A stretch of DNA of 36,176 nt from contig JYFJ02003939.1 in the NCBI GenBank assembly GCA_000934665.2, positions 1-36,176 on the forward strand. The letters run 5' to 3'. The notes below the pieces were generated by a model, which saw only the letters and a program-made list of their open reading frames with translations, was not told where the DNA came from and made no database searches. Source of the stretch: Catajapyx aquilonaris. Its lineage: Eukaryota. Both the position numbers and the translations under genes were made by a program. Positions 28,201-34,015 of the stretch are shown piece after piece (position 1 is the stretch's first letter; the number at the start of each line of letters is the position of its first letter).

Positions 28201-31200
28201 GTTTAAACTGTACGTTACGTGACACATGGACATGTTAGTGAATATTCATGTAAAATGGATATATCGGGGGAGCCCCCCCATGTAAAGGTAATAGCCTATC
28301 GGGGTATGCAATAAAACTAAAACTAAACTAAACTATGGTCTCAGGGAATGCTGTACCGCTGTAGATAACACTTGCTGGATATACACGTCAACCCTAATCA
28401 TTTCACTTTGCTGCCTTTTATTGCAGGTTTGGTGCTGATAGGAGTTTCTCAGGAACACCTTGTGAAAGAGAGAGACTACCCCTCACATCTCTTGAAGTCA
28501 TCACGGATGCTCTTTTAGAGATAATGGAGGCATGCATGAGGGACATTCCAGACTGTGATTGGTTGCAGAACTGGACTGGATTTTCCAAGAGCTTTGCTTT
28601 CCGGTACAATCCAGCGCTGCAACCCAGAGCTCTCATCGTGTTTGGTTGCATCAGTAAGTTGTGACATGGCTACATATTTACAGTTCTGGGATTTGTACAA
28701 GTGGAGAAATGCCCTGTATGTTATTATGCAATTTTTTTTAATCATTTCCATTCAGGCAAAGGAATTACTGACCAAGAAATCAAGCAGTTGCTGAGGATCT
28801 TGGTAAAGGCACTTGAAAGCTTTAGTGACATCTTTCTTATAGAGGCCATTGTCATGTGCCTCACAAGGTTGCAGCCTCTTCTGAGACCTGTAAGTTTTCT
28901 TAACATCTGATTGGCATTGCTGGAGACATGGATATGCTTGACTTTTTTTTTTAAATGACAGGAATCACCCATCCATCGAGCTCTCTTTTGGGTTGCTGTG
29001 TCAGTCCTACAACTGGATGAACTATCTCTGTACGCTTCAGGATTGGCTCTTCTGGAGCAGAACCTCCACACTCTGGACTCCCAGGGAATGTTTGAAGATA
29101 AGGTAAGAGAGTTTGCTATTTCTACATTTATTGAAGACATCGATGTAAAGTTTATTTTTTGTAAATTTTTTTGCTGCAGACTTTGGACCAAGTGATGCTG
29201 TCAACCAGGGAACCTTTGGAGTGGCACTTCAAACAGCTTGACCATGCAGTTGGTTTAAGCTTCAGAGGTAAGAATATAGTTCAGGAAGTGGGGAATTAAT
29301 GTAGCGACAAGGATTATATTTAATGACATAAAACTTAAAATTCATAGGATTGTGTCTGAATTGTGTTGCATGGTTGTATCCATCATTCTTCCTACAAGTA
29401 GCTCAAGAACATTTCTCGGTTCAATTTCAGCAAACTTCCATTTTGCCCTTGTGGGTCATCTCCTGAAGGGCTTTCGCCATCCAACAGCAACATCAGTGTC
29501 TCGAACTACCCGTGTACTGACAATGCTGTTGGGGATTGTTGCCAAGCCTACCAAGCGAGACAAGTTCGAAGTGACACCTGAGAGTGTAGCGTACTTGGCT
29601 GCATTAGTGTCTGTCTCTGAGGAGGTTCGAAGCAGATGTCACACAAAGCATTCTGTGTCGAGAGTTACACCTGAGTCATCCTCCATTGACAACTTCACTG
29701 TTGATTTGCATCTGAACTTTCCACCTGCAGTAAGTATTCATTTGCAGTTCTTGCAAGCTAGAGTGTGGTTTCAATATTTTTAGAGTAAATGTTTGCCTCT
29801 TTAGCATAGTCAACAGCACCAACAAGCATCACAACAGCTGAGTGCCGTGTCTTCCCCTGCTGTCATCCAAAGCACTGGTAGTGTAGATACTGTGTCCTGG
29901 GGTGCAGTTGTGACAGGGACTGGTGTGGGGGGGTCGTCAGGTGGCAGTAATGGGAGTGGAGGTGGCAGTGGCAGTGGAAGCAGCAGTGGGGGAAGTAGTG
30001 GTGGTACCATGGGTGGCGGAGGTGGGAGTTGTACTCCTCCACCTGGCAAGGACGGTGTTACCACCCCAACCAATCGCAGACAGAAATCTTGGGACTTGTT
30101 GGACCAATCAGCCATAGCGCAGGCAAGGCAGCAAAAGCAGACACAGGTGCAGCAGGTGAGATAAATTGGTTACTTTATCATGGGGAATAATTCATTTAAA
30201 ATGTCAGCTGTGTTCAAGCAATTTATTTTCGAGACACTGAATTGGTACGACAAGAGGCACAATGTGTAGGACACGTTGCCTCCTCACTTAACAAGAAATG
30301 GTTGTGTGCTAACATGTGTTCTTTCCAGATGAACTTAGCAAAGTGTGTTCATTTAACTTACTGCATTCTGCTCTACTACTAACAGCTTGGACAGGCGGAT
30401 AAAGAATGTACTTTGACCCTTTGGCATAACCACCATGACCTCAAAAACTTTTTCTATGCTCCTTTTCCTATCTACACATTCCTCATTTTCCACATGAGAT
30501 ATCCCAATAGGCATTTTCAGTAAAACCCAAGCCAGAAACGCTAGGAGTTGGGGATCATCAAAGTTATTACTGAACTTAGGGTATTATTATACCAGTTGTC
30601 ATCTACAGGGTGCCACAGAACAAGAGAGAGTTTTAAATATCATGCTTTTCATACCAACTGTGAGTTGTGGCATTTGCAACCACATTAGGGATAAATTATA
30701 TGCATTATTCAGGTTTACTGTAGAATTTTGGAAAAAATGCTGTTGTTTGAAACAAATTTTTTGGGTGCTTTTCTGCCTTGAGCAAGTTTTACTGTAAAAT
30801 TGCCATCTGGAGCAAGCGAGAGAGAGAAAGTGAATGGATAAGGAGGGGCCTGTTGAGAGAAACGGTCCAACTTGTCAAGCGACCATCTGACTGACCCACT
30901 TTTTGGCATTTGTTGTCATTTTGGCTGCCTGTCACCATAGACTCAGGCAAGGGGCGGAGTGGGAGGTGAGGTGAAGGGGTGGCGCAGCCTGGACCTGGAC
31001 CCTCACCTGGGCCGCCCCTTGTTCTGCACCCAGCGCTCCTCCTCCATGCCTGCTCCCAAGCCACAGAAGTCGGTTGAAGCAGGTGCGCCAGGGGCAGCCT
31101 CAGGAACACCTGCCCCCCCACAGCCCACGGGCAAAGTAAGGAGACCGGACACACACAGAGCACCACTACAGGGAGTGGGAGGGAAAAACTGCTTTCATCA

Positions 31201-34015: not shown

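What the first reader, a model, noticed from the sequence alone, without database searches (positions are those of the whole stretch)
30941..31621. NF1 has two related C-terminal exons, each carrying a mode-I 14-3-3-type motif (candidate second mutually exclusive pair)
Seen: exon A (195 nt) has [19 protein letters not shown]...TGK and exon B (93 nt) has [19 protein letters not shown]...TGK. Both are phase 0-0, share R-x-LF-x-TQRS-x-S-x-P, and end in TGK. Exon A adds an N-terminal KGWRSLDLD segment. Known: R-S-x-pS-x-P is the canonical mode-I 14-3-3 site, and NF1 is regulated by C-terminal phosphorylation and 14-3-3. Inference: an old exon duplication lets NF1 swap or double a phospho-switch. 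Both genes in this head-to-head pair would then use duplicated-exon switching, and PP1 is a known eraser of such 14-3-3 sites on RAF.
Basis: partly seen in the sequence, partly recalled or inferred. Interest (0 to 1): 0.72.

Follow-up and report, generated by a model that had tools for sequence, protein, structure and literature searches.

The report
Two related optional exons in NF1
An arthropod NF1 gene carries two optional coding exons, one an ancient shortened copy of the other, each adding one candidate phosphorylation-dependent docking site; relatives use them independently, not strictly either/or.

Summary
Exon A (30941-31135, 195 nt) and exon B (31529-31621, 93 nt) are phase 0-0, have AG/GT borders and share R-x-L-F-x-T-Q-R-S-x-S-x-P (BLASTP 12/25, E 6e-6; family profiles 97% probability, E 4e-11).

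Both match exon families found in other arthropod NF1 genes. The A type occurs in chelicerates, crustaceans, insects and mollusc-like sequences. The B type occurs in insects and in the brine shrimp Artemia, so the duplication predates the branchiopod-hexapod split.

The only sequencing run found joins 30155 to B to 33259. B is therefore really spliced in, and A is skipped in that contig.

Enforced mutual exclusivity is not supported. Gene models of relatives show A only, B only, neither, and A+B (16 models, 11 species). Both exons are multiples of three, and the intron between them is 393 nt. Four well-sampled species do show only A, B or neither.

R-S-x-S/T-x-P occurs almost only here in NF1. 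It lies 25-37 residues upstream of the R-V-S-V-S cluster, whose human counterpart (S2576/2578/2580) is required for 14-3-3 binding. Human exon 51, itself optional, sits at the same position. 14-3-3 binding to the arthropod sites is inferred, not shown.

Both exon types are already annotated in public gene models. I found no paper on their relatedness or the motif. Interest is moderate.

The parts
29805..30155 (+). Upstream constitutive NF1 exon. It ends ...[27 protein letters not shown] and its donor is GTGAGA.
   Evidence: A contig of run X1 joins 29729>29805 and 30155>31529. tblastn matches to insect NF1.
30810..30833 (+). (GA)n-rich tract in the intron, about 110 nt upstream of exon A. It is complementary to the (CT)n tract downstream of exon A.
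   Evidence: the repeat finder I1-I7: 15 nt at 93% and 24 nt at 75% complementarity. The tracts pair in both the MFE and the centroid fold, but the whole-fold z-score is only -1.09.
30941..31135 (+). Cassette exon A, 195 nt, 65 aa, phase 0-0. It is the ancestral type: K-x-W-R-S-L-D ... [13 protein letters not shown].
   Evidence: Open frame with AG/GTAAGG borders. The core is 79% identical to the Oratosquilla A segment and 74% to that of a scorpion. It aligns with 23 A-type segments of other species. It is skipped in the X1 contig and has no cover there.
31034..31051 (+). R-S-S-S-M-P, an exact mode-I type motif in exon A.
   Evidence: Motif scan of all three + frames of the window.
31198..31230 (+). 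(CT)n-rich tract in the A-B intron, 62-95 nt downstream of exon A's donor.
31529..31621 (+). Cassette exon B, 93 nt, 31 aa, phase 0-0. It is a shortened copy of A's 3' half: [18 protein letters not shown].
   Evidence: Spliced in on both sides in the X1 contig. It aligns with 34 B-type exons of insects. The Artemia B-type exon matches it best: 29 aa, 45% identity, E 5.5e-5.
31556..31573 (+). R-S-F-S-V-P, an exact mode-I type motif in exon B. It is directly preceded by an internal CAG (31553-31555).
   Evidence: Hymenopteran models P0153, P0160 and P0215 begin this exon at RSFSVP, which suggests an internal acceptor at the equivalent CAG.
33259..33465 (+). Downstream constitutive exon. It begins [11 protein letters not shown]. 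The R-V-S-V-S stretch (33271-33285) aligns with human R-K-V-S-V-S-E-S (S2576/2578/2580).
   Evidence: X1 contig joints 31621>33259 and 33461>33529. Residue mapping on vertebrate fragment P0115. PMC7692384, passages read.

Best explanation
Shown. A (30941-31135) and B (31529-31621) are two in-frame optional exons of an arthropod NF1 gene, lying between the exon that ends at 30155 and the one that starts at 33259. B is an old, shortened tandem copy of the 3' half of A. The copy was made before branchiopod crustaceans and hexapods split. A is older still: it is present, and apparently constitutive, in chelicerates, and it occurs in malacostracans and in mollusc-like sequences. Each exon keeps one exact R-S-x-S-x-P. 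These are the only such motifs in the coding frames of this gene, and nearly the only ones in NF1 of relatives. Across relatives the two exons are included independently (A, B, neither, A+B). No anatomical feature forces either/or. In this species the one RNA-like assembly shows upstream exon-B-downstream exon.

Inferred. Splice choice sets the number (0, 1 or 2) and the kind of a basophilic-kinase / 14-3-3 mode-I site in the C-terminal domain. That site would lie 25 residues (B) or 37 residues (A) upstream of the first serine of the conserved R-V-S-V-S cluster. The human counterpart of that cluster (S2576/2578/2580) is among the CTD sites whose phosphorylation is required for 14-3-3 binding, which lowers RasGAP activity. 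Because 14-3-3 is a dimer that binds two sites better than one (recalled general knowledge), the cassettes would tune how firmly 14-3-3 holds NF1, tissue by tissue. Human NF1 has its own optional exon at the same position (exon 51, formerly 43), which toggles a nuclear localisation signal instead.
For: Anatomy and chance tests:
- Coordinates, frames and splice borders.
- Likeness of A and B.

B is spliced in and A is skipped in one contig of run X1, with GT..AG at both skipped stretches.

A and B each belong to a conserved family (alignments). Orthology is reciprocal with Artemia: its B-type matches window B at E 5.5e-5 and window A at E 0.002, and its A-type matches window A best.

Splice forms in relatives:
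- Of 238 NF1 proteins, 163 carry both flank anchors. Of these, 45 are B only, 28 A only, 61 neither, 5 A+B and 24 have another insert.
- Cluster members add 11 more A+B models. The total is 16 models in 11 species, which matches the 16 full-length proteins with two motifs.
- Chelicerates always carry A: Centruroides cluster 7 of 7, Ornithodoros cluster 6 of 6.

Motif specificity:
- Of 209 full-length NF1 proteins, 141 have R-S-x-S/T-x-P in this region and only 7 have it anywhere else.
- Of 102 proteins with an insert here, 94 carry the motif.
- In all three + frames of the window it occurs at 31034, at 31556, and once out of the coding frame at 19477.

Human context:
- Phosphorylation at S2576/2578/2580/2813 and T2556 is required for 14-3-3 binding, which inhibits GAP activity (PMC7692384, passages read).
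- Exon 51 covers aa 2518-2559 and is alternatively spliced (PMC7690890, passages read).
- Anchoring fragment P0115 on the NLS (2534-2550) puts T2519, T2554 and Y2556 where that paper says they are. It puts S2576/2578/2580 on S-V-S-E-S.

Age of the duplication: the window's NF1 branches outside Pterygota in a 23-row tree.
Against: - Exon A has no RNA support in this species. Its conservation is the only evidence that it is used.
- Nearly all isoforms counted are computational gene models (RefSeq XP_ and similar). Their A-B junctions were not checked against reads, so some A+B or 'neither' forms may be artefacts.
- Four species with complete isoform sets show no A+B: Ischnura 0 of 9, Schistocerca gregaria 0 of 6, Periplaneta 0 of 11 and Artemia 0 of 7. 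This fits a one-at-a-time preference.
- There is no phosphorylation or binding evidence for the arthropod sites.
- Vertebrates have R-K-S-F-D-H at the aligned place, not R-S-x-S-x-P. The A-family HMM matches vertebrate fragments at only 2.9 bits. The link to the human 14-3-3 literature therefore rests on position and on the neighbouring S-V-S cluster, not on the motif itself.
- Some lineages show neither exon in any model: Cloeon 4 of 4 and Folsomia RefSeq 12 of 12. The module is therefore dispensable for the core function.
Confidence: 0.7

Rival explanations
1. A and B form a true mutually exclusive pair. Every mature NF1 mRNA would take exactly one of them, enforced by some cis mechanism such as competing RNA structures.
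For: - They are tandem, homologous, same-phase exons.
- Four species with complete isoform sets have A-only and B-only forms but no A+B: Ischnura 0 of 9, Schistocerca gregaria 0 of 6, Periplaneta 0 of 11, Artemia 0 of 7.
- In this species only the B-only form was seen.
- Complementary (GA)n and (CT)n tracts flank exon A and could loop it out.
Against: - 16 A+B models in 11 species.
- 'Neither' forms are the largest class, 61 of 163, and occur in those same four species.
- The lengths are 195 and 93 nt. Both are multiples of three, so including both or neither keeps the frame.
- The intron between them is 393 nt with GT-AG ends, so there is no steric or spliceosome-type bar.
- The flanking-tract fold is not better than shuffles (z -1.09), and the tracts are low-complexity.
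Confidence: 0.12
2. Exon A is a relic in this species. It would be a conserved-looking but no longer used exon, leaving B as the only cassette here.
For: Depth is zero over 30588-31392 in run X1, while parts of the flanking introns have some cover. Some lineages show no A in any model: Zootermopsis 0 of 9 classifiable, Drosophila and Glossina.
Against: - The frame is open and both splice sites are intact.
- Every family hallmark is kept ([16 protein letters not shown]). Core identity to a stomatopod is 79% and to a scorpion 74%, despite very deep divergence. Neutral decay would have erased this.
- One small contig set cannot show absence; the tool itself says contigs drop rare variants.
Confidence: 0.08
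3. The conserved R-S-x-S-x-P is a regulated phosphosite, but 14-3-3 is not its reader. It might be a PKA/CaMKII/AGC site that controls localisation or another partner, as human exon 51 at this position controls nuclear import.
For: - The positional counterpart in humans toggles an NLS and predicted kinase sites, not a 14-3-3 motif (PMC7690890, passages read).
- The vertebrate sequence at the aligned place lacks the proline and the second serine.
- The conserved block is longer than a 14-3-3 motif ([15 protein letters not shown]), which suggests further constraints.
Against: - The motif is an exact match to the canonical mode-I pattern. It is kept in 94 of 102 inserts, in otherwise unalike sequence contexts.
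- It sits next to the cluster that is tied to 14-3-3 in humans (PMC7692384, passages read).
Confidence: 0.3

Closest known systems
Human NF1 exon 51 (formerly exon 43), the delta-E43 / delta-NLS isoform
   Same: It is an optional in-frame exon in the C-terminal domain at the same position. It begins at G2518 in K-K-L-L|G-T-R-K-S-F, which lines up with L-F-K-T-Q-R-S-F of the arthropod exons, and it ends 16 residues before S2576 (PMC7690890 and PMC7692384, passages read). Inclusion or skipping adds or removes a short regulatory motif. It is reported to be skipped rarely in neurons.
   Different: It is a single exon with no tandem paralogue. It carries a bipartite NLS, not R-S-x-S-x-P. Sequence likeness to the arthropod A family is weak (2.9 bits), so common descent of the splice event is not shown.
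PKA-dependent 14-3-3 binding to the human neurofibromin C-terminal domain (Feng et al. 2004, seen only as cited in reviews PMC7692384 and PMC10119308)
   Same: The region of the protein is the same. The S-V-S cluster required for binding is conserved at the start of the window's downstream exon (33271-33285), and the cassettes add a canonical site just upstream of it.
   Different: The human sites are not mode-I motifs. No arthropod data exist in what I could search. The primary paper was not read.
Tandem duplicated exon substitution (mutually exclusive exons), e.g. arthropod Mhc, N-cadherin and Dscam (PMC3228551, PMC9741552, PMC2655722: search listing and abstracts only)
   Same: The origin is a tandem exon duplication, the phase is the same, the age is great, and there is homology between the alternatives.
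   Different: The lengths differ twofold, only part of A was copied, both exons or neither can be included, and no enforcing mechanism is evident.
Public gene models of insect NF1 isoforms (RefSeq XP_ records of Drosophila, Anopheles, Ischnura, Periplaneta and others)
   Same: Both exon types are already annotated as alternatives there. The Drosophila models carry the B-type exon or neither.
   Different: These records give no account of the relatedness of the two exons, of their age or of the motif. The window's own species was not among the hits.

Membership tests
NF1 / neurofibromin gene | RasGAP domain together with the NF1-type Sec14-PH module | tested here: met
   PF00616 scores 36.3 bits (cut-off 28.3) on 22435-22692. 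PF21877 PH_NF1 scores 163.5 bits on 25581-26051.
NF1 / neurofibromin gene | Collinear full-length similarity to known neurofibromins | tested here: met
   37 collinear tblastn pieces from 14596 to 33988 cover residues 20-2834 of a 2890-aa damselfly NF1. Identity to insect NF1 is about 76%.
Cassette (optional) exon | Spliced in in some transcripts and skipped in others, with the frame kept either way | tested here: met
   B is included and A is skipped in the X1 contig. Orthologous exons are present or absent among isoform models of single species. Lengths are 195 and 93 nt, phase 0-0. Inclusion of A in this species rests on conservation only.
Mutually exclusive exon pair | Tandem, homologous, same-phase exons | tested here: met
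Mutually exclusive exon pair | Similar exon length | tested here: not met
   The exons are 195 and 93 nt. Only the 3' half of A has a counterpart in B.
Mutually exclusive exon pair | Exactly one of the pair in every mature transcript | tested here: not met
   In relatives there are 16 A+B models in 11 species, and 61 of 163 proteins have neither exon. For this species alone the test is inconclusive, because only one form was seen.
Mutually exclusive exon pair | A mechanism that enforces exclusivity: frame shift with NMD, too short an intron, incompatible splice sites, or competing RNA structure | tested here: not met
   Both exons are multiples of three. The intron between them is 393 nt. All sites are GT-AG. 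The only notable pairing is low-complexity, and its fold z-score is -1.09. Conserved intron elements could not be sought because no arthropod genomes were at hand.
14-3-3 mode-I binding site | Sequence R-S-x-pS/pT-x-P | tested here: met
   R-S-S-S-M-P at 31034 and R-S-F-S-V-P at 31556. The motif is conserved in 94 of 102 inserts and is nearly unique to this region of NF1. The motif definition itself is recalled general knowledge.
14-3-3 mode-I binding site | The serine is phosphorylated in cells | not testable with these tools
   A full-text search for the peptide found 0 papers.
14-3-3 mode-I binding site | Phospho-dependent binding to 14-3-3 | not testable with these tools
No job was sent.

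The most novel reading that the evidence does not exclude
The loop of the NF1 C-terminal domain just upstream of the S-V-S phospho-cluster may be a splice-controlled regulatory switch across bilaterians. Vertebrates toggle an NLS there with exon 51. Pancrustaceans evolved a two-cassette module by partial exon duplication. That module would dial 0, 1 or 2 canonical 14-3-3 sites, giving graded, tissue-specific, PKA-dependent silencing of RasGAP activity. The B cassette is present in Drosophila gene models, so the idea is directly testable by genetics.
Probability: 0.25. Interest if true: 0.6.

Novelty: new member of a known kind. Interest (0 to 1): 0.4.

Why it matters
NF1 is a major Ras regulator and disease gene, and how its C-terminal domain is controlled is poorly understood. 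This locus offers a conserved, alternatively spliced pair of exons that carry nearly the only canonical 14-3-3-type motifs in the whole protein. They sit next to the cluster already tied to 14-3-3 in humans, at the position where human NF1 also has an optional exon.

The short exon also appears in Drosophila gene models. [quoted passage not shown] That makes a concrete experiment possible: delete or mutate the cassette and read out 14-3-3 binding, Ras/cAMP signalling and behaviour.

It is also a clean example of a partial exon duplication that did not become a strict either/or pair.

Tried and rejected
- Sequencing runs: no RNA holder is listed. One run of unrecorded kind (X1) was found. Its contigs carry GT..AG joints, so they behave like transcripts. 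Exon A has no cover there; I report this only as not seen.
- Earlier findings of this scan: nothing on record.
- Vertebrate homology of exon A by profile. The best match in each of 7 fragments lands on the expected S-L-D-M-G...L-L-G-T-R-K-S stretch, but at 2.9 bits or less. It cannot count as shown.
- Representative-library search with exon A: 6 hits in all. Five are short A-type NF1 fragments of unnamed, mollusc-like origin with no B after A. One is an unrelated repeat protein. This adds little.
- A+B region search: 20 hits. It added the A+B model of Rhynchophorus.
- A looping-out structure around exon A. The tracts pair in the predicted folds, but the fold is no better than shuffles and the tracts are low-complexity. 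I keep it as a note only.
- Extra cassettes of relatives. The Periplaneta 25-aa cassette upstream of A, and the G-D-x-S-P...K micro-exon of Artemia and malacostracans, have no counterpart in 30156-33258.
- Literature. I found no paper on arthropod NF1 C-terminal cassettes, on their relatedness or on the motif. No listed paper holds both 'neurofibromin' and 'mutually exclusive exons'. The library lacks most subscription journals, and no supplements were opened.
- (bacterial promoter/terminator scan of 100 bases) has no bearing on the question.
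Full report
WHAT IS THERE

The window holds most of an arthropod NF1 gene on the + strand. Collinear tblastn pieces run from 14596 to 33988 and cover residues 20-2834 of a 2890-aa damselfly neurofibromin. Pfam finds RasGAP and PH_NF1 on window exons. A PP1-type phosphatase gene lies on the - strand at about 3.3-10.1 kb.

Two open, phase 0-0 segments with good splice borders lie between the exon that ends at 30155 and the exon that starts at 33259. 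Exon A is 30941-31135 (195 nt). Exon B is 31529-31621 (93 nt).

IS THE LIKENESS REAL?

BLASTP aligns 25 residues of A with B at 12 identities, E 6e-6 for that one comparison. I cut the corresponding segments out of the NF1 proteins of other species by script. This gave 23 A-type and 34 B-type segments after removing duplicates. With them:
- A profile of the B family, with the window's row left out, scores the window's exon A at 25.6 bits. The best of 1000 shuffles of exon A scores 6.7 bits.
- A profile-profile comparison of the two families gives 97.2% probability and E 4.4e-11 over 24 columns.

The shared block is R-x-L-F-x-T-Q-R-S-x-S-x-P-x-x-K. A has an extra N-terminal part (K-x-W-R-S-L-D...) with no counterpart in B. 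B is therefore a copy of the 3' half of A.

The in-frame codons just upstream of B's acceptor read L-P-Q. With the start of B they resemble the D-P-Q-N-x-R-P-L-F of crustacean A exons. This hints that B's acceptor arose inside copied coding sequence.

ARE THE EXONS USED?

Only one public run holds this stretch (X1; kind not on record; Logan contigs). Laid on 29300-34100, one 1253-nt contig joins 29729>29805, 30155>31529 and 31621>33259, each with GT..AG at the skipped part.

B is therefore spliced in on both sides, and A is skipped in that molecule. Depth over exon A is zero, but one small contig set cannot show absence.

The case for A being used is its conservation. The frame and splice sites are intact, every hallmark of the A family is kept, and the core is 79% identical to a stomatopod and 74% to a scorpion.

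WHAT DO RELATIVES SHOW?

Two searches gave 238 NF1 proteins. One used the downstream exon and reached only proteins of 120-2000 aa. The other used the C-terminal region of a beetle NF1 and reached proteins of 1026-3266 aa. Each listed its best 120 hits.

163 of the 238 carry both flanking anchors and could be classified:
- B only: 45
- A only: 28
- neither: 61
- A followed by B: 5
- another insert: 24 (unnamed, non-arthropod-looking)

The remaining 75 lacked one anchor and were left out.

Listing cluster members gave whole isoform series for single species.

| Species | Models | A | B | Neither | A+B | Other |
|---|---|---|---|---|---|---|
| Ischnura elegans | 9 | 6 | 2 | 1 | 0 | - |
| Schistocerca gregaria | 6 | 4 | 1 | 1 | 0 | - |
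| Periplaneta americana | 11 | 8 | 1 | 1 | 0 | 1 (another cassette only) |
| Artemia franciscana | 7 | 4 | 2 | 1 | 0 | - |
| Hetaerina americana | 4 | 0 | 2 | 1 | 1 | - |

Further series:
- Cryptotermes has A, B, neither, and one model with A, 21 extra residues, then B.
- Gryllus longicercus has 4 A+B and 2 A models.
- Mosquitoes and a sand fly have all four forms, with a greatly expanded A.
- Drosophila and Glossina have B or neither.
- Scorpions (7 of 7) and soft ticks (6 of 6) always have A.

In all, 16 models from 11 species carry both exons. This matches the 16 full-length proteins with two motifs.

Most of these are computational gene models, and I could not check their junctions against reads.

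HOW OLD IS THE DUPLICATION?

Artemia has a B-type exon (R-A-V-F-K-T-Q-R-S-L-S-V-P...S-G-K) that matches the window's B best. Its A-type matches the window's A best. The window's NF1 branches outside Pterygota, in a well-supported set with a springtail, crustaceans and chelicerates. This comes from a 23-row quick maximum-likelihood tree with SH-aLRT support only.

B therefore predates the branchiopod-hexapod split. I saw no B in chelicerates or malacostracans, but only a few isoforms were sampled there. A is older: chelicerates, malacostracans and five unnamed mollusc-like fragments carry it.

IS IT A MUTUALLY EXCLUSIVE PAIR?

No defining mechanism is present. The exons are 195 and 93 nt, both multiples of three. 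The intron between them is 393 nt. All splice sites are GT-AG. Relatives show both-in and both-out forms.

Four well-annotated species show only one exon at a time or none, so a regulated preference is possible. A (GA)n tract upstream of A and a (CT)n tract downstream of it pair in the predicted fold. This could favour skipping of A. The fold is no better than shuffles (z -1.09), and I could not test conservation.

THE MOTIF

R-S-x-S/T-x-P occurs in the cassette region of 141 of 209 full-length NF1 proteins and anywhere else in only 7. Of 102 proteins with any insert here, 94 carry it, including unnamed sequences that are otherwise quite unlike the arthropod exons. In the window's three + frames it occurs only at 31034 (A), at 31556 (B), and once out of the coding frame. 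Such specificity in a protein of about 2800 residues argues for function.

LINK TO WHAT IS KNOWN

Reviews state that PKA phosphorylates the human C-terminal domain. They also state that phosphorylation of S2576, S2578, S2580, S2813 and T2556 is required for 14-3-3 binding, which lowers GAP activity (PMC7692384 and PMC10119308, passages read; the primary paper was not read).

Another paper states that exon 51 (formerly 43; aa 2518-2559; NLS 2534-2550; T2519, T2554, Y2556) is alternatively spliced (PMC7690890, passages read). I anchored the vertebrate fragment P0115 on the NLS, which reproduces those residues exactly. It puts S2576/2578/2580 on S-V-S-E-S and the start of exon 51 at K-K-L-L|G-T-R-K-S-F.

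The S-V-S cluster aligns with the start of the window's downstream exon (R-V-S-V-S, 33271-33285). G-T-R-K-S-F lines up with K-T-Q-R-S-F of the cassettes. The arthropod cassettes therefore sit where the human optional exon sits. The candidate phospho-serine lies 25 residues (B) or 37 residues (A) upstream of the first serine of that cluster; I counted this by hand.

MOST LIKELY MECHANISM (INFERRED)

Splice choice sets how many canonical sites (0, 1 or 2) flank the conserved cluster, and so how well a 14-3-3 dimer can clamp the domain and damp RasGAP activity. I put about 0.85 on the structural account: two real, paralogous, independently included cassettes.

NOVELTY

Both exon types are already present as alternatives in public gene models, Drosophila included. 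Alternative splicing at this position is known in humans. In six full-text searches I found no paper that describes the arthropod cassettes, their relatedness or the motif. It is a new member of a known kind, of moderate interest, and testable in flies.

Noticed in passing
window 5312-5437 and 5680-5805, - strand: The PP1 catalytic-subunit gene has a tandem duplicated exon. The two copies are 93% identical over 42 residues ([14 protein letters not shown]... segment).
   Followed up: partly
window 30810-30833 and 31198-31230: A (GA)n-rich tract and a (CT)n-rich tract flank exon A and pair with each other in the predicted MFE and centroid folds. The CU-rich tract also looks like a polypyrimidine-tract-binding-protein site; that motif is recalled, not tested. 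The fold is not better than shuffles.
   Followed up: partly
window 31553-31555 (and 31031-33 in exon A): Both exons have an internal CAG directly before the C-G-C-T-C-C that codes R-S. Some hymenopteran isoform models (P0153, P0160, P0215) start the B exon exactly at R-S-F-S-V-P, as if this internal acceptor were used.
   Followed up: no
window 32141-33284: Run X1 has three low-depth contigs inside the last intron. One (32858-33284) runs unspliced into the exon at 33259. The high-depth downstream contig stops at the 33259 junction. These could be pre-mRNA, a retained intron, or a graph break where several upstream contexts meet.
   Followed up: no
window 31520-31528: The in-frame codons just upstream of exon B's acceptor read L-P-Q. 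Together with N-V-R-A-L-F they resemble D-P-Q-N-M-R-P-L-F of crustacean A exons. This may be a remnant of the duplicated coding sequence.
   Followed up: partly
window 29880-30020: The upstream constitutive exon holds a long Gly/Ser-rich low-complexity run that is not shared with the insect NF1 proteins compared.
   Followed up: no
relatives: P0190, P0210, P0227, P0326-P0336: In mosquitoes and sand flies the A-type exon is expanded to roughly 130-260 residues of Asn/Thr/Ser-rich sequence. It still keeps K-S-W-R-S-L-D at its start and an R-R-S-S-S-E-P motif.
   Followed up: no
relatives: P0140, P0280-P0286: Periplaneta has a further 25-residue cassette upstream of A, and one isoform carries it alone. 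Artemia and malacostracans have a G-D-x-S-P...K micro-exon after the cassettes. Neither has a counterpart in the window.
   Followed up: yes
window 13227 and about 11800-11950: There is one N in the window, in the intergenic stretch between PP1 and NF1, and a long run of A/T homopolymer there.
   Followed up: no
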